Notes under the pieces: generated by a model
The model's input: only the letters and a program-made list of their open reading frames with translations
Database searches by the model: none
What the model was told of the DNA's origin: nothing
Shown: positions 1-6,115 of the stretch, piece after piece
Layout: every line of letters begins with the position of its first letter
Numbering within the stretch: position 1 is the stretch's first letter
Position numbers and translations under genes: made by a program
From: a virus
Taxonomy: Monodnaviria > Loebvirae > Hofneiviricota > Faserviricetes > Tubulavirales > Inoviridae
Reading direction: 5' to 3' (one strand)
IMG/VR virus record: IMGVR_UViG_2537562019_000017
DNA: 6,197 nt

Positions 1-286
1 ATGAAATGTTATAAGTTACTCCTTCCCTCCCCTCCATTGACCAGACGCGAACATATACAGGTATCTGGACTAACTTACCGATAAAATTATTTGCCTGATT
101 CATTACACCGGCATTAACAAGAGCCTGAGATACACGAATAATAATCTGGTCTTGCTTAGTGCCACCAAAACCATCAGGAATCTCTAAGCCAACACCAATT
201 TCATTATAGTATCCCTGACCATTGACCTTATTACGCTGGCGAGCACCAAGCATTTTACCTTTTACAAAAAGACCATAATTAGACAT
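1..286 (-). CDS. Small phage protein, partial (C-terminus lies left of the window); position suggests a filamentous-phage ssDNA-binding protein (gV/RstB-like), function unconfirmed
   Basis: Minus-strand ATG at 284..286 preceded by a strong RBS (AAAGGAG, 287..297) that overlaps the rep stop codon. The frame stays open to the window edge (at least 95 aa, MSNYGLFVKGKMLGARQRNKVNGQGYYNEIGVGLEIPDGFGGTKQDQIIIRVSQALVNAGVMNQANNFIGKLVQIPVYVRVW...). Small, Gly-rich, directly downstream of rep and translationally coupled, as for gV/rstB in inoviruses. Not in the supplied ORF track; translated by hand. Confidence 0.5.
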   Translation of the reverse strand, partial: MSNYGLFVKGKMLGARQRNKVNGQGYYNEIGVGLEIPDGFGGTKQDQIIIRVSQALVNAGVMNQANNFIGKLVQIPVYVRVWSMEGREGVTYNIS

Positions 287-297
287 ATCACTCTCCT

Positions 298-1350
298 TTA
301 ATGCCAGTTACTGGCATGTGAAATACGGTTATAATCGAAAATTAAACCTTTCTCATAAACCCATGATGGAATTTTGGCTGGTTTGGCTTCAAGAGTACGA
401 ACCAACGGAACAACGTTATTAGAATCCGGTGACTCACAATAAAAGTTAATATCTATTCCGAAAGAAAGTAATTCTTTACGGTGTCGGTAGAATGTAGGTT
501 TCGGTAACATCTCTTTCATGTTCGCGCCCTGCTTCCACAATAAATATGTAGACTGTATTTTTCTTGGGAGATTAATTATTTTTTCATCAGTTAATATGGT
601 ATTTTGATTCATTTCTATTCTCCCTACATAGTCAGAGAATAATTTATTGGGCGTCTCAATATTCCAGCTATTACCAAGCGTAAGATTCAAATCAATTAAT
701 TCAGTTGTTCTTAATGTTAATTCAATGCGTAATTTATCTTTTGACCAGTCCAGTAAACCAGCTTTAACGAATTCGTCTGCCATCTGGTGCCCTTTTTTGC
801 CAGATGTATGCTCATCATATTTTGAATAAAATTTCAGGCTCCAACGACGGGAGTTTTTCCCTAAGTAAACAGTGCCACCTTTACCACAGGCGCGACCGTG
901 GCGAGTTTTAGCTTTAAATTCTGCGGCATATAGCCATGCGCGGACATTTTCTAATGTTGACAATGAATACATATAGTTGATATCAATACGCGAGATCTTA
1001 AATTGCCCTGCCATTACCTGTCGATAGGATGAAAGATCATGAGGAATATGCAGTAATGCCAATATTCTGGCATAAGCTGTTAATACTAACCCTTGCAAAT
1101 CATCGGAACCGATAACAGAGTGACCTTGCAAAAACTTTGACGGATTGCCGTCAATATAGAGATGTGTTGCCCGACCTTCGCCATCAGATCCAACAGATCT
1201 TACTTTCATAGTGGATTCATACGAACCGCGAACAGTCAACCGTTTTACTGTTTCCCACTCCACTGCACCGTCAGCATCAACGCTGACGACACTACCAGCC
1301 GGTAATGGTCGGTGTATGCAAGGTAGGATCCCGGTAAACCAGTCAATCAT
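298..1350 (-). CDS. Rolling-circle replication initiation protein, filamentous-phage gII/RstA-like (Phage_CRI-type), copy 1
   Basis: 350-aa ORF with ATG at 1348..1350 and a GAGG RBS 6 nt upstream on the minus strand. The block ...HLYIDGNPSKFLQGHSVIG... and the Tyr-containing LKFYSKYDE segment resemble, from memory, inovirus Rep proteins. Sits between a divergent HTH regulator and a small ssDNA-binding-like gene. Confidence 0.7.
   Translation of the reverse strand: MIDWFTGILPCIHRPLPAGSVVSVDADGAVEWETVKRLTVRGSYESTMKVRSVGSDGEGRATHLYIDGNPSKFLQGHSVIGSDDLQGLVLTAYARILALLHIPHDLSSYRQVMAGQFKISRIDINYMYSLSTLENVRAWLYAAEFKAKTRHGRACGKGGTVYLGKNSRRWSLKFYSKYDEHTSGKKGHQMADEFVKAGLLDWSKDKLRIELTLRTTELIDLNLTLGNSWNIETPNKLFSDYVGRIEMNQNTILTDEKIINLPRKIQSTYLLWKQGANMKEMLPKPTFYRHRKELLSFGIDINFYCESPDSNNVVPLVRTLEAKPAKIPSWVYEKGLIFDYNRISHASNWH
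301..317. other. 17-bp perfect palindrome ATGCCAGT-T-ACTGGCAT at the 3' end of rep (copies at 2132..2148 and 3963..3979)
   Basis: Read directly from the sequence; 8-bp arms around a single central base. Overlaps the last six codons of rep and lies 15 nt upstream of the RBS of the small downstream gene. Confidence 0.6.
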
Positions 1351-1517
1351 GTATCGCCTCAGAGAACAATTTTGTGACCAGAAAGCCTGTCAAGAGCTTA
1401 TTAGTACCAATTCAGTCACACAAATGTACAACCCAAGATCTTACCTCTCAAGTGATTTTGTACTGGATAAGTGACATATTTGTTCTTTTGAAATGGAGCA
1501 AAAAAGTAGGATATAGA
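1351..1517. promoter_or_regulatory. Divergent control region between rep and the repressor-like gene (candidate promoters, operators, possibly replication origin), copy 1
   Basis: 167-bp non-coding gap between two divergently transcribed start codons. Contains three GTAC cores (1404..1407, 1426..1429, 1460..1463) within TTAGTAC / TTGTACA(rev) / TTGTACT motifs, three GTGAC/GTCAC motifs (1374..1378, 1415..1419, 1471..1475) and the 8-bp palindrome AAGATCTT (1435..1442). Exact -35/-10 elements could not be assigned confidently. Confidence 0.5.
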
Positions 1518-1970
1518 ATGAGCAACAACTTCAACAGTAATGGCTACCCGGAAGAAATGGCAGAAGACATAGACTTACAGCGGGCAGAAAGGATAAAAAA
1601 AGCGATCCTAAGCAAATTCACATACGAAAGGATGGAAGAACTGTCTGGCATCAACATTGGCACACTGAAACGGATCGCAAACGCACAGAGGGATGCGAAA
1701 ATCAGTGAGCTGGAAAAAATTGCTGAAATCACTCAGACAGACATATTTGAACTGATTTTTGGCTCCAGTAGCAGTGATATCTACGATTCCAGCAAACGCT
1801 TCTTTGAGACGAGAAGTAAAGATGCGGCTCAGGCGGCTCAATTCATCATCTACAATCTTCGTACCCTTGATGATGAGGACATCCTTTGTTTGGGGAGGGT
1901 TTCGAGTGCCTTGCAAACAGCAACAACATCAAGAAAATGGGATGAGCTTTTCGGGAAGAAGAAAGGCTGA
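1518..1970 (+). CDS. XRE-family (Cro/cI-type) helix-turn-helix transcriptional regulator, phage repressor-like, copy 1
   Basis: ATG at 1518 with AGGA RBS 6 nt upstream; 150 aa. Residues about 21-80 (RAERIKKAILSKFTYERMEELSGINIGTLKRIANAQRDAKISELEKIAEITQTDIFELIF) fit the XRE HTH pattern. Followed by a Ser-rich linker and a roughly 60-aa C-terminal region of unknown function. The track's longer ORF from GTG 1374 would run through the control region and lacks an RBS, so the ATG at 1518 is preferred. Confidence 0.75.
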   Translation: MSNNFNSNGYPEEMAEDIDLQRAERIKKAILSKFTYERMEELSGINIGTLKRIANAQRDAKISELEKIAEITQTDIFELIFGSSSSDIYDSSKRFFETRSKDAAQAAQFIIYNLRTLDDEDILCLGRVSSALQTATTSRKWDELFGKKKG

Positions 1971-1973
1971 GTC

Positions 1974-2117
1974 TCAGAAATGAGACAAACGTGCAGTATT
2001 ACCATCAGGAATCTCTAAGCCAACACCAATTTCATTATAGTATCCCTGACCATTGACCTTATTACGCTGGCGAGCACCAAGCATTTTACCTTTTACAAAA
2101 AGACCATAATTAGACAT
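1974..2117 (-). pseudogene. Junction-truncated chimeric copy of the small gV-like gene (47 aa), copy 2
   Basis: Same start and RBS as the gene at 1..286, but after codon 39 the reading frame crosses the repeat junction (2000/2001) and ends after 8 junction-derived codons (NTARLSHF, stop at 1974..1976). Confidence 0.5.
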
Positions 2118-2128
2118 ATCACTCTCCT

Positions 2129-3181
2129 TTAATGCCAGTTACTGGCATGTGAAATACGGTTATAATCGAAAATTAAACCTTTCTCATAAACCCATGATGG
2201 AATTTTGGCTGGTTTGGCTTCAAGAGTACGAACCAACGGAACAACGTTATTAGAATCCGGTGACTCACAATAAAAGTTAATATCTATTCCGAAAGAAAGT
2301 AATTCTTTACGGTGTCGGTAGAATGTAGGTTTCGGTAACATCTCTTTCATGTTCGCGCCCTGCTTCCACAATAAATATGTAGACTGTATTTTTCTTGGGA
2401 GATTAATTATTTTTTCATCAGTTAATATGGTATTTTGATTCATTTCTATTCTCCCTACATAGTCAGAGAATAATTTATTGGGCGTCTCAATATTCCAGCT
2501 ATTACCAAGCGTAAGATTCAAATCAATTAATTCAGTTGTTCTTAATGTTAATTCAATGCGTAATTTATCTTTTGACCAGTCCAGTAAACCAGCTTTAACG
2601 AATTCGTCTGCCATCTGGTGCCCTTTTTTGCCAGATGTATGCTCATCATATTTTGAATAAAATTTCAGGCTCCAACGACGGGAGTTTTTCCCTAAGTAAA
2701 CAGTGCCACCTTTACCACAGGCGCGACCGTGGCGAGTTTTAGCTTTAAATTCTGCGGCATATAGCCATGCGCGGACATTTTCTAATGTTGACAATGAATA
2801 CATATAGTTGATATCAATACGCGAGATCTTAAATTGCCCTGCCATTACCTGTCGATAGGATGAAAGATCATGAGGAATATGCAGTAATGCCAATATTCTG
2901 GCATAAGCTGTTAATACTAACCCTTGCAAATCATCGGAACCGATAACAGAGTGACCTTGCAAAAACTTTGACGGATTGCCGTCAATATAGAGATGTGTTG
3001 CCCGACCTTCGCCATCAGATCCAACAGATCTTACTTTCATAGTGGATTCATACGAACCGCGAACAGTCAACCGTTTTACTGTTTCCCACTCCACTGCACC
3101 GTCAGCATCAACGCTGACGACACTACCAGCCGGTAATGGTCGGTGTATGCAAGGTAGGATCCCGGTAAACCAGTCAATCAT
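2129..3181 (-). CDS. Rolling-circle replication initiation protein, filamentous-phage gII/RstA-like, copy 2
   Basis: Identical 350-aa translation to copy 1, offset by 1,831 bp. Confidence 0.7.
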   Translation of the reverse strand: MIDWFTGILPCIHRPLPAGSVVSVDADGAVEWETVKRLTVRGSYESTMKVRSVGSDGEGRATHLYIDGNPSKFLQGHSVIGSDDLQGLVLTAYARILALLHIPHDLSSYRQVMAGQFKISRIDINYMYSLSTLENVRAWLYAAEFKAKTRHGRACGKGGTVYLGKNSRRWSLKFYSKYDEHTSGKKGHQMADEFVKAGLLDWSKDKLRIELTLRTTELIDLNLTLGNSWNIETPNKLFSDYVGRIEMNQNTILTDEKIINLPRKIQSTYLLWKQGANMKEMLPKPTFYRHRKELLSFGIDINFYCESPDSNNVVPLVRTLEAKPAKIPSWVYEKGLIFDYNRISHASNWH

Positions 3182-3348
3182 GTATCGCCTCAGAGAACAA
3201 TTTTGTGACCAGAAAGCCTGTCAAGAGCTTATTAGTACCAATTCAGTCACACAAATGTACAACCCAAGATCTTACCTCTCAAGTGATTTTGTACTGGATA
3301 AGTGACATATTTGTTCTTTTGAAATGGAGCAAAAAAGTAGGATATAGA
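3182..3348. promoter_or_regulatory. Divergent control region, copy 2
   Basis: Copy of 1351..1517 offset by 1,831 bp; identical in spot checks. Confidence 0.5.
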
Positions 3349-3801
3349 ATGAGCAACAACTTCAACAGTAATGGCTACCCGGAAGAAATGGCAGAAGACA
3401 TAGACTTACAGCGGGCAGAAAGGATAAAAAAAGCGATCCTAAGCAAATTCACATACGAAAGGATGGAAGAACTGTCTGGCATCAACATTGGCACACTGAA
3501 ACGGATCGCAAACGCACAGAGGGATGCGAAAATCAGTGAGCTGGAAAAAATTGCTGAAATCACTCAGACAGACATATTTGAACTGATTTTTGGCTCCAGT
3601 AGCAGTGATATCTACGATTCCAGCAAACGCTTCTTTGAGACGAGAAGTAAAGATGCGGCTCAGGCGGCTCAATTCATCATCTACAATCTTCGTACCCTTG
3701 ATGATGAGGACATCCTTTGTTTGGGGAGGGTTTCGAGTGCCTTGCAAACAGCAACAACATCAAGAAAATGGGATGAGCTTTTCGGGAAGAAGAAAGGCTG
3801 A
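3349..3801 (+). CDS. XRE-family HTH transcriptional regulator, phage repressor-like, copy 2
   Basis: Identical translation to copy 1; ATG at 3349 with the same RBS. Confidence 0.75.
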   Translation: MSNNFNSNGYPEEMAEDIDLQRAERIKKAILSKFTYERMEELSGINIGTLKRIANAQRDAKISELEKIAEITQTDIFELIFGSSSSDIYDSSKRFFETRSKDAAQAAQFIIYNLRTLDDEDILCLGRVSSALQTATTSRKWDELFGKKKG

Positions 3802-3804
3802 GTC

Positions 3805-3948
3805 TCAGAAATGAGACAAACGTGCAGTATTACCATCAGGAATCTCTAAGCCAACACCAATTTCATTATAGTATCCCTGACCATTGACCTTATTACGCTG
3901 GCGAGCACCAAGCATTTTACCTTTTACAAAAAGACCATAATTAGACAT
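3805..3948 (-). pseudogene. Junction-truncated chimeric copy of the small gV-like gene (47 aa), copy 3
   Basis: Copy of 1974..2117 offset by 1,831 bp. Confidence 0.5.
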
Positions 3949-3959
3949 ATCACTCTCCT

Positions 3960-5012
3960 TTAATGCCAGTTACTGGCATGTGAAATACGGTTATAATCGA
4001 AAATTAAACCTTTCTCATAAACCCATGATGGAATTTTGGCTGGTTTGGCTTCAAGAGTACGAACCAACGGAACAACGTTATTAGAATCCGGTGACTCACA
4101 ATAAAAGTTAATATCTATTCCGAAAGAAAGTAATTCTTTACGGTGTCGGTAGAATGTAGGTTTCGGTAACATCTCTTTCATGTTCGCGCCCTGCTTCCAC
4201 AATAAATATGTAGACTGTATTTTTCTTGGGAGATTAATTATTTTTTCATCAGTTAATATGGTATTTTGATTCATTTCTATTCTCCCTACATAGTCAGAGA
4301 ATAATTTATTGGGCGTCTCAATATTCCAGCTATTACCAAGCGTAAGATTCAAATCAATTAATTCAGTTGTTCTTAATGTTAATTCAATGCGTAATTTATC
4401 TTTTGACCAGTCCAGTAAACCAGCTTTAACGAATTCGTCTGCCATCTGGTGCCCTTTTTTGCCAGATGTATGCTCATCATATTTTGAATAAAATTTCAGG
4501 CTCCAACGACGGGAGTTTTTCCCTAAGTAAACAGTGCCACCTTTACCACAGGCGCGACCGTGGCGAGTTTTAGCTTTAAATTCTGCGGCATATAGCCATG
4601 CGCGGACATTTTCTAATGTTGACAATGAATACATATAGTTGATATCAATACGCGAGATCTTAAATTGCCCTGCCATTACCTGTCGATAGGATGAAAGATC
4701 ATGAGGAATATGCAGTAATGCCAATATTCTGGCATAAGCTGTTAATACTAACCCTTGCAAATCATCGGAACCGATAACAGAGTGACCTTGCAAAAACTTT
4801 GACGGATTGCCGTCAATATAGAGATGTGTTGCCCGACCTTCGCCATCAGATCCAACAGATCTTACTTTCATAGTGGATTCATACGAACCGCGAACAGTCA
4901 ACCGTTTTACTGTTTCCCACTCCACTGCACCGTCAGCATCAACGCTGACGACACTACCAGCCGGTAATGGTCGGTGTATGCAAGGTAGGATCCCGGTAAA
5001 CCAGTCAATCAT
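3960..5012 (-). CDS. Rolling-circle replication initiation protein, filamentous-phage gII/RstA-like, copy 3
   Basis: Identical 350-aa translation to copies 1 and 2. Confidence 0.7.
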   Translation of the reverse strand: MIDWFTGILPCIHRPLPAGSVVSVDADGAVEWETVKRLTVRGSYESTMKVRSVGSDGEGRATHLYIDGNPSKFLQGHSVIGSDDLQGLVLTAYARILALLHIPHDLSSYRQVMAGQFKISRIDINYMYSLSTLENVRAWLYAAEFKAKTRHGRACGKGGTVYLGKNSRRWSLKFYSKYDEHTSGKKGHQMADEFVKAGLLDWSKDKLRIELTLRTTELIDLNLTLGNSWNIETPNKLFSDYVGRIEMNQNTILTDEKIINLPRKIQSTYLLWKQGANMKEMLPKPTFYRHRKELLSFGIDINFYCESPDSNNVVPLVRTLEAKPAKIPSWVYEKGLIFDYNRISHASNWH

Positions 5013-5179
5013 GTATCGCCTCAGAGAACAATTTTGTGACCAGAAAGCCTGTCAAGAGCTTATTAGTACCAATTCAGTCACACAAATGTACAACCCAAGA
5101 TCTTACCTCTCAAGTGATTTTGTACTGGATAAGTGACATATTTGTTCTTTTGAAATGGAGCAAAAAAGTAGGATATAGA
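5013..5179. promoter_or_regulatory. Divergent control region, copy 3
   Basis: Copy of 1351..1517 offset by 3,662 bp. Confidence 0.5.
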
Positions 5180-5632
5180 ATGAGCAACAACTTCAACAGT
5201 AATGGCTACCCGGAAGAAATGGCAGAAGACATAGACTTACAGCGGGCAGAAAGGATAAAAAAAGCGATCCTAAGCAAATTCACATACGAAAGGATGGAAG
5301 AACTGTCTGGCATCAACATTGGCACACTGAAACGGATCGCAAACGCACAGAGGGATGCGAAAATCAGTGAGCTGGAAAAAATTGCTGAAATCACTCAGAC
5401 AGACATATTTGAACTGATTTTTGGCTCCAGTAGCAGTGATATCTACGATTCCAGCAAACGCTTCTTTGAGACGAGAAGTAAAGATGCGGCTCAGGCGGCT
5501 CAATTCATCATCTACAATCTTCGTACCCTTGATGATGAGGACATCCTTTGTTTGGGGAGGGTTTCGAGTGCCTTGCAAACAGCAACAACATCAAGAAAAT
5601 GGGATGAGCTTTTCGGGAAGAAGAAAGGCTGA
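5180..5632 (+). CDS. XRE-family HTH transcriptional regulator, phage repressor-like, copy 3
   Basis: Identical translation to copies 1 and 2; ATG at 5180. Confidence 0.75.
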   Translation: MSNNFNSNGYPEEMAEDIDLQRAERIKKAILSKFTYERMEELSGINIGTLKRIANAQRDAKISELEKIAEITQTDIFELIFGSSSSDIYDSSKRFFETRSKDAAQAAQFIIYNLRTLDDEDILCLGRVSSALQTATTSRKWDELFGKKKG

Positions 5633-5651
5633 GTCTCAGAAATGAGACAAA

Positions 5652-5676
5652 CGTGCAGTATTACCAACACTGCACG
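5652..5676. other. Inverted repeat / hairpin (8-bp stem CGTGCAGT...ACTGCACG, 9-nt loop ATTACCAAC) spanning the right array boundary
   Basis: Read directly from the sequence. The left arm lies inside the repeat unit (also at 1990..1997 and 3821..3828); the right arm exists only in the right flank. The ACCA junction microhomology (5663..5666) is in the loop. Lies 20 nt downstream of the repressor stop; no adjacent U-tract. Confidence 0.6.
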
Positions 5677-5716
5677 TTCTGGATTGAGCGATTTTTAAAC
5701 ACCAGAAAAAGGGTAA

Positions 5717-6115
5717 ATGATGAACAAAACAGTGTATGTACCAAGCTACTTCCAGCCTATCTACAAAGAAGTAACCATCAAAGTTCCTACCGGAAACACA
5801 AAACGATTCCTGGGTCTCATCGACATTGAAGAAAAAATCCGAAAAAGAGAAGTTATTCAGGATGGCTGGTCTGATTGCCAGATTGACGGGGAAAGACTCA
5901 ATGAAGATGTTGGTCGAGCCATTAATAAACTTAATCGGGAAGGGTATGAGGTTATTTCAATAACCCCTGCTACCTCAGGAAGCTGGGCTTATAAATATAA
6001 ACAAAACAGTATTCGTAATGGAAACGGTGATGGCAGTTATGGATATGGTTACGGTTATTCATACACCGAAGGCGTTATGATTCTGGCAAAGAAAATTGAG
6101 AAAGAGGACGTCTGA
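5717..6115 (+). CDS. Hypothetical protein, 132 aa, with a Gly/Tyr low-complexity segment (GNGDGSYGYGYGYSY)
   Basis: ATG ATG start at 5717/5720 with an AAGGG RBS upstream. No N-terminal hydrophobic signal sequence. The C-terminal part (REGYEVISITP...GVMILAKK) is vaguely reminiscent of small DUF4177-like proteins, but I cannot confirm this without a search. Confidence 0.6.
   Translation: MMNKTVYVPSYFQPIYKEVTIKVPTGNTKRFLGLIDIEEKIRKREVIQDGWSDCQIDGERLNEDVGRAINKLNREGYEVISITPATSGSWAYKYKQNSIRNGNGDGSYGYGYGYSYTEGVMILAKKIEKEDV

What the first reader, a model, noticed from the sequence alone, without database searches (positions are those of the whole stretch)
170..5666. Perfect three-copy tandem amplification of a 1.83-kb Rep + repressor module
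A 1,831-bp unit carrying a rolling-circle replication initiator, its divergent control region and an XRE-type repressor is repeated head-to-tail three times with no divergence I could detect. Tandem arrays of filamentous prophages and satellites are known (CTXphi/RS1 arrays in Vibrio cholerae), but there the unit is bounded by dif-like attachment sites. Here the boundary falls inside a coding gene and only the replication/immunity module is amplified, not a whole phage. Zero divergence implies either a very recent, possibly unstable and selected, gene-dosage amplification (triple repressor and Rep dosage, with consequences for superinfection immunity or phage production) or a concatemeric replicative intermediate captured in the assembly.
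Basis: partly seen in the sequence, partly recalled or inferred. Interest (0 to 1): 0.85.

Follow-up and report, generated by a model that had tools for sequence, protein, structure and literature searches.

The report
Replication-origin-anchored triple repeat in filamentous prophage
The perfect three-copy repeat is real and inherited in a diarrhoeal E. coli lineage, and its boundary lies exactly where the phage replication protein is predicted to nick the origin, as do six independent partial duplications in related phages.

Summary
Confirmed. Window 170-5666 is 3 x 1,831 bp plus 4 bp (ACCA), with the copies 100% identical. The window is a whole draft contig from E. coli. It lies in a CUS-1/YpfPhi-type filamentous prophage integrated at dif. 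The same array occurs in two PacBio-finished ETEC O114/CS7 genomes from Bangladesh (isolates of 1988 and 2006). A third (2010) keeps the junction beside a 7-kb deletion, and the junction ORF is on at least 24 public contigs. It is therefore neither an assembly artefact nor a captured replication intermediate.

The right boundary lies in the loop of the plus-strand origin hairpin, at GGT|AATACTG. This column aligns with the M13 gene II protein nick (GTTCTTT|AATA). Six further independent partial tandem duplications share this endpoint, with periods of 754 to 3,865 bp. Each joins a different upstream sequence ending in GT to AATACTG. This fits Rep-mediated mis-termination of rolling-circle replication, followed by recombinational expansion.

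One SNP is present in all three copies of this isolate only. The copies are therefore being homogenised, and zero divergence does not date the event.

This is a new natural variant of a known kind of event. Interest is moderate.

The parts
170..5666 (.). Tandem array: three identical 1,831-bp units (170-2000, 2001-3831, 3832-5662) plus the 4-bp microhomology ACCA (5663-5666)
   Evidence: Offset comparison and repeat finder. The same array is in CP024240, CP023349 and APXC01000191.
298..1350 (-). Rep (gene II-type rolling-circle initiator, 350 aa), copy 1. Identical copies at 2129-3181 and 3960-5012.
   Evidence: Pfam Phage_CRI 1e-72 and G2P_X_C 3e-34. PHROG 702. 58% identical to phage I2-2 gene II. 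23% identical to M13 gIIp (E 3e-7), with a Tyr aligned to the catalytic Tyr197.
1518..1970 (+). Divergent RstR-like regulator (150 aa), copy 1. Identical copies at 3349-3801 and 5180-5632.
   Evidence: PHROG 3557 transcriptional regulator 1e-68. Pfam HTH_3 is below its cut-off. It occupies the position of YPO2273/rstR (PMC4266046).
1..286 (-). Intact gene V (ssDNA-binding protein G5P). It runs off the window start. The pseudo-nick site used for the duplication is at 169|170 (phage strand CCTGATGGT|TTTGG).
   Evidence: Pfam Putative_G5P 9e-48. Parental-site comparison.
1974..2117 (-). Truncated gene V' ORF (47 aa: 39 aa of G5P plus a read-through tail) created by the hybrid junction. A second copy is at 3805-3948.
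   Evidence: This exact 47-aa product is on at least 24 public contigs.
5650..5678 (-). Authentic plus-strand origin hairpin (arms 5651-5659 and 5669-5677). The predicted Rep nick on the - strand lies between 5663 and 5662 (GTGTTGGT|AATACTG).
   Evidence: DNA fold z = -4.2 to -5.5. The block is conserved in phage I2-2 and in 24 origin variants whose flanks are unrelated. MAFFT places the M13 nick at this column. M13 nick: PMC11962056, PMC5405960.
5633..5648 (-). Second inverted repeat, GTCTCA-n4-TGAGAC, immediately 3' of the nick. It is in the position of the Ff gIIp-binding repeat. Copies at 1971-1986 and 3802-3817 are kept at both hybrid junctions.
   Evidence: Folds. It covaries with GTACCA..TGGTAC in relatives.
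1997..2004 (-). Hybrid junction 1 (phage strand ...CCTGATGGT|AATACTGCACG). Hybrid junction 2 is at 3828-3835. Each keeps the whole 3' side of the origin and the TGGT 5' of the nick. Each lacks the left hairpin arm.
   Evidence: The junction does not fold into the hairpin.
1430..1430 (.). C>A SNP private to this isolate (and AQDY01000018). It is present in all three copies (1430, 3261, 5092), in the rep-regulator intergenic region.
   Evidence: It lies 2 nt upstream of a promoter-like -10 on the - strand.
5717..6115 (+). 132-aa accessory ORF of the phage's attL-side region. It is outside the array.
   Evidence: PHROG 15841, function unknown. Annotated as hypothetical.

Best explanation
The array is a real, chromosomally inherited structure. 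It sits inside a dif-integrated CUS-1/YpfPhi-type filamentous prophage of an ETEC O114/CS7 lineage.

Proposed origin (inferred). The phage Rep, a homologue of Ff gene II protein, nicks the plus strand at GTGTTGGT|AATACTG in the origin hairpin. By analogy with Ff gIIp it stays bound to the 5' end (AATACTG...). In one replication event that end was not rejoined at the origin. It was joined instead to a 3'-OH made at a look-alike site in gene V (CCTGATGGT|TTTGG), 1,831 nt downstream. This could happen in two ways. Replication could read through the origin for more than one round, giving a genome with the nick-to-gene-V segment duplicated. Or a 1,831-nt circle could form and recombine back into the phage. 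Both give the observed order: authentic origin, unit, hybrid junction, unit continuing into intact gene V. Homologous recombination then took the array from two copies to three and keeps the copies identical.

Consequences (inferred, not tested). The cell carries three copies of rep and of the regulator. It also carries three direct repeats of the 3' half of the origin. The two hybrid origins keep the GT that is invariant among authentic origins, and all sequence 3' of the nick. They lack the left hairpin arm. By analogy with Ff they may still initiate but terminate poorly.
For: The structure is real.
- The same array is in CP024240 (strain 90-9280, isolated 1988) and CP023349 (E2264, 2006). 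Their 30-kb regions differ by 3 SNPs and 1 indel, none in the array.
- E2980 (2010) has the junction plus a deletion.
- E2264 and E2980 were assembled from PacBio reads (PMC5784243, PMC8085198). PMC8085198 also lists the 90-9280 plasmid among PacBio-sequenced ETEC plasmids.
- The junction ORF is on at least 24 contigs, including a 1,861-nt looped unitig (1,831 + 30).

The boundary is the origin nick.
- Rep belongs to the Ff gIIp family and has the aligned catalytic Tyr.
- The 45-nt origin block is shared with phage I2-2, whose gene II is 58% identical.
- It is conserved in 24 variants, with compensatory changes in both stems.
- MAFFT aligns the M13 nick GTTCTTT|AATA to GGT|AATA, which is the array junction (PMC11962056, PMC5405960).

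The endpoint recurs. Six further independent partial tandem duplications end at the same position.
- L018: period 754.
- L060 (E. coli AB_24_S34): period 763.
- L059 (E. coli LSN03-016011/A): period 776.
- L055 (metagenome contig): period 2,419.
- L006 (Klebsiella spallanzanii): period 3,826.
- L073 (E. coli STIN_95): period 3,865, three copies.
These use five further pseudo-sites, in rep (two sites), gene VIII, gene III and gene IV. All read ...GT|AATACTG.

Controls.
- A self-BLAST of the loci held at that point (L001-L058) found no partial tandem duplication ending elsewhere. Whole-phage arrays are dif-bounded.
- All events extend downstream of the nick, in the direction of replication. No reciprocal junction was found in IMG/VR.
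- The part of the origin that is kept is the 5'-end side, to which gIIp is covalently bound in Ff (PMC5405960). The shared bases (GT, GGT, TGGT) lie on the other side of the nick. Cleavage-joining by Rep predicts this layout.

Homogenisation: a private SNP is present in all three copies.
Against: - No biochemistry. The nick site is assigned by alignment and by the recurrent junctions. It has not been mapped.
- Several of the extra events were found with patterns anchored on AATACTGCACG, which can only find this type of junction. The less biased finds are the given array, L006 (found through Rep), L018 (the origin pattern would also have shown other duplications) and L073 (found through an odd hit count).
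- Pseudo-sites share little beyond GT. Upstream resemblance to the left arm of the origin is significant for two of the four pseudo-sites tested and absent in the other two.
- The step from two to three copies, and why both resolved multi-copy arrays have exactly three, is not explained.
- Tandem 1.8-kb repeats are expected to be unstable in RecA+ cells, yet the copy number is the same in isolates 18 years apart.
- Raw reads were not available, so copy number rests on the deposited assemblies.
Confidence: 0.72

Rival explanations
1. Ordinary microhomology-mediated tandem duplication (slippage or template switching on the 4-bp ACCA) that has nothing to do with Rep. RecA-dependent unequal crossing-over and selection for higher repressor or Rep dosage would follow.
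For: There is a 4-bp microhomology at the junction. The copies are identical. Amplification by unequal exchange is the standard route. The private SNP in all copies shows that recombination does act on the array.
Against: It does not explain why seven independent duplications, of different lengths and hosts, all have one end at the same nucleotide in the origin loop. It also does not explain why all extend downstream of it. By chance, one endpoint falling within 5 nt of a given site in an 8.8-kb phage has a probability of about 1e-3 per event.
Confidence: 0.08
2. The event depends on the Rep nick but the joining is done by the host. A chromosomal or RF replication fork collapses at the nick, and the broken end is repaired by microhomology-mediated break-induced replication, giving a duplication that ends at the nick.
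For: This also predicts an endpoint at the nick and short microhomology. The prophage sits at dif, in the chromosome terminus region (role of dif: PMC4266046).
Against: The shared bases (GT, GGT, TGGT) lie 5' of the nick. They are therefore not on the DNA end that is kept in the hybrid (AATACTG...). Annealing of that end would need homology on the other side. GT is invariant at all six pseudo-sites and in all 24 authentic origin variants, while positions -3 to -5 vary. This looks like an enzyme's cleavage requirement.
Confidence: 0.12
3. Assembly artefact, or a free concatemeric or circular replicative form mis-assembled into the chromosome.
For: The window is a stand-alone 6,197-bp draft contig. 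A short-read unitig of 1,861 nt closes on itself. That would also be expected of a free 1,831-bp circle.
Against: Finished chromosomes from separate projects, at least two from PacBio reads, place the array or its junction between unique prophage sequence on both sides. Two of them show the same three copies (PMC5784243, PMC8085198).
Confidence: 0.02
4. An RS1-like satellite element (regulator plus Rep) that integrated repeatedly by XerCD recombination at dif-like sites, as in CTXphi/RS1 arrays.
For: The gene content resembles rstR-rstA. The host phage uses dif, and whole-phage arrays occur in relatives (PMC4266046).
Against: There is no dif-like sequence at the unit boundaries. One boundary is inside gene V and the other is in the origin loop. 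The unit is a contiguous piece of the resident phage.
Confidence: 0.02

Closest known systems
Illegitimate recombination at the Ff (M13/f1) origin, and Ff miniphage/defective-interfering genomes with duplicated origins (Michel & Ehrlich 1986; Horiuchi and co-workers). Recalled from memory; the papers were not retrievable here.
   Same: A gene II-family initiator is involved. One end of the rearrangement is at the nick site and the other at a look-alike sequence. The origin-proximal module is multiplied and structural genes are not.
   Different: Those were laboratory plasmid constructs or high-multiplicity phage passages, giving free replicons. Here the products are fixed inside integrated prophages of natural isolates. 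They recur in several species and one has been inherited for more than 20 years.
CTXphi/RS1 arrays of Vibrio cholerae
   Same: Tandem arrangement of a regulator plus Rep module next to a dif-integrated filamentous prophage. Directly repeated origins could act as initiator and terminator. This part is from my own knowledge of Davis & Waldor 2000 and Moyer et al. 2001.
   Different: RS1 units are bounded by attachment (dif-like) sites and arise by integration. Here the boundaries are the origin nick and a site inside gene V, and no dif-like site is present.
Whole-genome tandem arrays of YpfPhi, CUS-1 and UPPhi prophages at dif
   Same: The same phage group. Two to four copies, with copy number thought to change by recombination (PMC4266046, PMC7307601). 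Seen here in DA33137 (two copies) and FDAARGOS_1303 (three copies).
   Different: In those arrays the repeat unit is the whole phage (8.6-9.1 kb) and the junction is an imperfect dif. Here it is a 1.83-kb sub-genomic segment.
Engineered Ff two-origin cassettes (initiator ori1, truncated terminator ori2) used to make short circular ssDNA and nanorods
   Same: Direct repeats of a plus-strand origin in one replicon, one of them truncated (PMC11962056).
   Different: In the engineered cassette the truncated origin lacks the 3' side and so only terminates. The natural hybrid origins lack the 5' side, so the opposite behaviour is expected. No circle production has been shown.

Membership tests
Ff-type gene II protein (Pfam Phage_CRI / G2P) rolling-circle initiators | N-terminal G2P domain and C-terminal G2P/X domain | tested here: met
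   PF05144 1.2e-72 (residues 1-231) and PF05155 3.5e-34. PHROG 702 2e-119.
Ff-type gene II protein (Pfam Phage_CRI / G2P) rolling-circle initiators | [quoted passage not shown] | tested here: met
   MAFFT of M13, I2-2 and window Rep aligns a Tyr (SLKFYSKYDE) with M13 Y197. Role of Y197: PMC5405960.
Ff-type gene II protein (Pfam Phage_CRI / G2P) rolling-circle initiators | Cognate origin: nick in a hairpin loop, followed directly by a second inverted repeat | tested here: met
   Folds. Alignment with the M13 origin has 18 invariant columns, including T|AATA. Conservation and covariation in 24 variants.
Ff-type gene II protein (Pfam Phage_CRI / G2P) rolling-circle initiators | Site-specific nicking-closing activity at that site | not testable with these tools
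   Only indirect support: seven independent rearrangement junctions at the same position.
CUS-1/YpfPhi-type dif-integrating inovirus prophage | Gene order regulator / rep-gV-coat genes-zot-secretin, with an intact dif at the 3' end of the prophage | tested here: met
   Annotation of L001-L003. A perfect dif is at L001 6125-6152. Rep is 99% identical to that of the Y. pestis prophage. Organisation as in PMC4266046.
CTXphi/RS1-type satellite array | Repeat unit bounded by dif-like attachment sites (integration by XerCD) | tested here: not met
   No dif-like sequence with 7 or fewer mismatches anywhere in the array. The boundaries are in gene V and in the origin loop.
CTXphi/RS1-type satellite array | Unit is mobilised and packaged as a satellite | not testable with these tools
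   No data. By analogy with I2-2, whose morphogenetic signal lies upstream of the origin, the unit probably lacks a packaging signal.
Filamentous miniphage / defective-interfering genome | Sub-genomic segment that keeps the origin side and lacks structural genes | tested here: met
   The unit holds the 3' half of the origin, the regulator, rep and the 5' part of gene V.
Filamentous miniphage / defective-interfering genome | Exists as a free replicon dependent on a helper | tested here: inconclusive
   All resolved copies are chromosomal. A self-closing 1,861-nt short-read unitig fits either a collapsed array or a circle.
XRE (Cro/C1) HTH repressor | Cro/C1-type helix-turn-helix domain | tested here: inconclusive
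   Pfam HTH_3 20.0 bits against a 23-bit cut-off; HTH_26 18.8 against 22. PHROG 3557 'transcriptional regulator' 1e-68. Some sources name it as XRE-family. Repressor activity is untested (PMC4266046 says the same of YPO2273).
Generic microhomology-mediated duplication and amplification | Endpoints set only by short chance homologies, so scattered between independent events | tested here: not met
   Microhomology is present (2-4 bp), but one endpoint is the same nucleotide in 7 of 7 independent events.

The most novel reading that the evidence does not exclude
The hybrid origins are functional, and the array acts as a natural initiator/terminator cassette. Rep would start at one origin copy and close at the next. 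This would continuously shed 1.83-kb circles carrying rep and the repressor, a self-made satellite of the prophage. These circles, or their dimers, would recombine back into the array. That could explain both the rapid homogenisation of the copies and the recurrent copy number of three in two unrelated arrays. More widely, Rep mis-termination would be a general way for dif-integrating filamentous phages to generate RS1-like modules.
Probability: 0.15. Interest if true: 0.75.

Novelty: new variant of a known kind. Interest (0 to 1): 0.55.

Why it matters
- It gives a sequence-level, experiment-ready prediction of the plus-strand nick site (GT|AATACTGCA) for the I2-2/CUS-1/YpfPhi replication module. 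This group includes the Yersinia pestis phage and prophages common in pathogenic E. coli. I found no mapped origin for this module in the papers I could search.
- The origin-nick recombination known from laboratory Ff systems appears to reshape natural prophages repeatedly. It produces partial arrays that short-read assemblies collapse and annotation pipelines list as pseudogenes.
- It corrects a tempting inference. Perfect identity of tandem copies does not mean a recent event, because the copies are homogenised.
- The triple rep/regulator dosage and the extra origins may affect immunity or phage production in a globally relevant ETEC lineage. This is untested.

Tried and rejected
- Tandem Repeats Finder found nothing, because its period limit is 500.
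- Megablast of the window against GenBank phages found nothing. Only a protein search linked Rep to I2-2.
- I could not retrieve Michel & Ehrlich 1986 or Gonzalez et al. 2002. Statements about them are from memory.
- A dif-like sequence at the junction was searched for and not found.
- I tested whether pseudo-sites resemble the left arm of the origin. The gene V site shares GTGTTGG (p about 0.02) and the rep-a site shares GTGCAGTG (p about 0.01). The other two tested sites show nothing, so the result is inconclusive overall.
- Patterns HAATACTG..., HTAATACTG... and ACGTGCAGTGTWGGTB in IMG/VR returned chance 16-mers or an unrelated conserved gene of small marine phages. They gave no reciprocal junctions.
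- FDAARGOS_1303, picked for an odd hit count, proved to be an ordinary whole-phage triple.
- The promoter/terminator scan found no more sites than in shuffled sequence.


Full report
**1. The observation**

Comparing each base with the base 1,831 positions later gives a single unbroken identical run, 170-3835. Window 170-5666 is therefore three identical 1,831-bp units plus 4 bp (ACCA). ACCA is present at both parental ends, so it is junction microhomology. Each unit holds four things:
- a 350-aa Rep on the - strand (Pfam Phage_CRI 1e-72 and G2P_X_C 3e-34);
- a divergent 150-aa regulator (PHROG 3557 1e-68; Pfam HTH_3 just below its cut-off);
- the intergenic control region;
- the first 39 codons of gene V (Putative_G5P).

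The intact gene V continues leftwards from the first unit. The two internal copies are 47-aa stumps.

**2. Where it comes from, and whether it is real**

The window is the reverse complement of a complete 6,197-bp draft contig, APXB01000037.1. The same 6,197 bp, differing at three bases, lie in two finished chromosomes. These are E. coli O114:H49 90-9280 (CP024240) and ETEC E2264 (CP023349).

The array sits in a filamentous prophage with the gene order regulator / rep-gV-coat genes-zot-secretin. The prophage lies next to hipBA, with a perfect dif at its 3' end. This is the CUS-1/YpfPhi organisation (PMC4266046). Rep is 99% identical to that of the Y. pestis prophage.

E2264 was assembled from a 10-kb PacBio library (PMC5784243). 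PMC8085198 groups the 90-9280 plasmid with PacBio-sequenced ETEC plasmids. The two strains were isolated in Bangladesh in 1988 and 2006 (PMC8085198). Their 30-kb regions differ by 3 SNPs and 1 indel, none in the array.

A third CS7/O114 strain, E2980 (2010, PacBio), has the same hybrid junction once, next to a 7-kb deletion. Only these 3 of 5,426 complete E. coli genomes have the junction. The junction-specific 47-aa ORF is nevertheless on at least 24 public contigs. One is another three-copy contig (APXC01000191). Another is a self-closing 1,861-nt short-read unitig, which equals 1,831 + 30.

At least eight other genomes have the single-copy arrangement (2,535 bp). In DA33137 and FDAARGOS_1303 the whole phage is tandemly repeated, with dif-type junctions. 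An artefact or a captured concatemer is therefore excluded as far as deposited assemblies allow.

**3. What the boundaries are**

Phage genes are on the window's - strand, so that strand is the phage plus strand. Read on that strand, the right boundary is GAACGTGCAGTGTTGGT|AATACTGCACGTTTGTCTCATTTCTGAGAC. This is a perfect 9-bp hairpin, extendable to 13 bp. The junction lies in its loop, and a second inverted repeat follows.

Phage I2-2 has a gene II product 58% identical to this Rep. It carries nearly the same 45-nt block in its intergenic region. Twenty-four origin variants from genomes, IMG/VR and metagenomes keep GTGCAGTG-nnn-GT|AATACTGCAC, although their flanks are unrelated. Both stems show compensatory changes: C-G to T-A at the base of hairpin 1, and GTCTCA/TGAGAC to GTACCA/TGGTAC in hairpin 2.

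Rep is a homologue of M13 gIIp (23% identity, E 3e-7; a Tyr aligns with Tyr197). MAFFT aligns the M13 origin GTTCTTT|AATAGTGGACTCTTGTTCC with GTGTTGGT|AATACTGCACGTTTGTCTC. [quoted passage not shown] Its recognition sequence begins only 4 nt 5' of the nick (PMC11962056, PMC5405960, PMC11765958). The aligned nick column is exactly the array boundary.

The left boundary, in gene V, is CCTGATGGT|TTTGG. It shares TGGT with the origin.

**4. The endpoint recurs**

| Locus | Host or source | Period (bp) | Copies | Pseudo-site |
|---|---|---|---|---|
| window | ETEC O114/CS7 | 1,831 | 3 | gene V, CCTGATGGT\|TTTGG |
| L006 | Klebsiella spallanzanii | 3,826 | at least 2 | gene IV, AAGTCCCGT\|ATATG (complex, with an internal deletion) |
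| L018 | IMG/VR contig | 754 | 2 | rep, GGGAAACAGT\|AAAAC |
| L060 | E. coli AB_24_S34 | 763 | 2 | the same rep site, in a phage with a different regulator |
| L059 | E. coli LSN03-016011/A | 776 | 2 | rep, CGTTCGCGGT\|TCGTA |
| L055 | metagenome contig | 2,419 | 2 | gene VIII, GCATCAAGT\|GGTGT |
| L073 | E. coli STIN_95 | 3,865 | 3 | gene III, GCTGCCGT\|TAATG |

Every one of the seven events joins '...GT' to 'AATACTGCACG'. Every one extends downstream of the nick. A self-BLAST of the loci held at that point (L001-L058) found no partial tandem duplication with a junction elsewhere. A search for the reciprocal junction (origin left arm followed by foreign DNA) in IMG/VR found none.

There is a caveat. 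L055, L059 and L060 were found with probes that contain the origin sequence. The given array, L006, L018 and L073 were not selected for this endpoint.

**5. Mechanism**

*Shown.* The boundary is the conserved origin hairpin loop. The position aligns with the Ff nick. The same endpoint has been used seven times. GT is invariant at pseudo-sites and at authentic origins, while positions -3 to -5 vary.

*Inferred.* Rep, bound to the 5' end AATACTG..., rejoined that end to a 3'-OH produced by cleavage after a GT at a pseudo-site. In other words, rolling-circle replication mis-terminated. Read-through of the true origin followed by mis-termination gives a genome carrying the duplication. Alternatively a unit-length circle recombines back in. 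The sequence cannot tell these two routes apart.

The layout favours enzymatic cleavage-joining over repair of a collapsed fork. The 5'-end side of the origin is kept, and the shared bases lie on the other side of the nick. Repair of a collapsed fork would need homology on the retained end.

Going from two to three copies, and keeping the copies identical, is most simply explained by homologous recombination.

**6. Age and stability**

The window's array differs from every other array, and from single-copy phages, by one C>A change. That change is present in all three copies (1430, 3261, 5092) and also in contig AQDY01000018. A mutation arises in one copy, so it has since spread through the array. 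The copies evolve in concert, and 'zero divergence' carries no date. Together with the 1988, 2006 and 2010 isolates, this contradicts a very recent, transient amplification. Why three copies recur, in four resolved ETEC assemblies and in the unrelated STIN_95 array, is unexplained.

**7. Function**

Everything here is inferred. There are three copies of rep and of the RstR-like regulator. The net effect on Rep expression is unknown, because the regulator's role is itself unproven (PMC4266046).

The two hybrid origins keep hairpin 2, everything 3' of the nick, and TGGT 5' of it. They have lost the left arm and no longer fold into the hairpin. In Ff the recognition sequence for nicking starts at -4. 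Domain A, which is required for both initiation and termination, starts at -12 (PMC5405960). From memory of Dotto and co-workers, the part from -5 to -12 is specific to termination. By that analogy the hybrids may initiate but terminate poorly.

The ETEC strains carry one full prophage only, so there is no downstream authentic origin for CTX-like production of full-length phage DNA from the chromosome.

**8. Comparison with known systems**

This is not a CTXphi/RS1-type array, because it has no dif-like boundaries. It is not the whole-phage tandem array typical of YpfPhi and UPPhi (PMC4266046, PMC7307601).

It works like the origin-nick illegitimate recombination and origin-duplicated miniphages described for Ff in the laboratory (from memory). 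Miniphages are also reported for Pf (PMC11996451). The new element is that the products are fixed in natural, integrated prophages. They recur across E. coli and Klebsiella, and one has been inherited for decades in an epidemiologically important ETEC lineage. None of the papers my searches returned describes this.

**9. Verdict**

It is wrong about recency and about a captured concatemer. It missed the origin nick. This is a new variant of a known kind, and interest is moderate (0.55).

Noticed in passing
window 1430, 3261, 5092: One C>A SNP separates this isolate's array from all other arrays and from single-copy phages. It is present in all three copies. It lies in the rep-regulator intergenic region, 2 nt upstream of a promoter-like -10 (TACATT, - strand). 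It changes TGG-TACATT to TTG-TACATT, removing an extended -10 TG.
   Followed up: partly
L004 12001-12002 (= L001 8206|15200): The 7-kb deletion in ETEC E2980 has its gene IV endpoint at CCCGTAT|AT|GCTAG. This is 2-4 nt from the pseudo-site used in Klebsiella spallanzanii (CCCGT|ATATGC). It may be a second hot spot, or a coincidence (post hoc p about 0.01).
   Followed up: no
L073 13671-25271 and window 170-5666: Both partial arrays resolved with more than two copies (ETEC, period 1,831; STIN_95, period 3,865) have exactly three copies. All four resolved ETEC assemblies also have three.
   Followed up: no
L028 1-18 and 7011-7030: An IMG/VR contig from an isolate genome begins exactly at GT|AATACTGCACG and ends inside dif (GGTGCGCATAATGTA). 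Contig breaks at repeat boundaries would be expected if that genome also has an origin-anchored repeat.
   Followed up: no
L014 2550-2580; L053, L054, L056-L058 upstream of the origin hairpin: Phage I2-2 and I2-2-like metagenome phages carry an Ff-like element about 25-100 nt upstream of the I2-2-type origin hairpin. It reads GTGGACTCTTGTTGCGATTTGCAAC; compare M13 GTGGACTCTTGTTCCAAACTGGAAC. These intergenic regions therefore hold two origin-like modules.
   Followed up: no
L003 6138-23622; L072 7703-32001: Whole-prophage tandem arrays with dif-type junctions: DA33137 has two copies (period 8,849) and FDAARGOS_1303 has three (period 9,145). These contrast with the partial arrays.
   Followed up: partly
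L001 758-5979: In the ETEC lineage an island lies immediately beside dif and the prophage end. It has IS100, a nucleotidyltransferase-domain protein, a HesA/MoeB/ThiF-family protein and two integrase genes. This gene pair might be a defence-type module.
   Followed up: no
L027 8503-8520, L035 3446-3463, L043 2598-2615, L045, L050: The 16-18-mer (G)TAATACTGCACGTTTGT also occurs in contigs unrelated to this phage, in two small groups of related contigs. This is probably chance at this database size, but it was not examined.
   Followed up: no
window 1974-2117: PHROG 19122, a 47-position profile of unknown function, matches the first 39 residues of G5P. Truncated gene V' ORFs of this kind may already be present in phage protein collections.
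   Followed up: no
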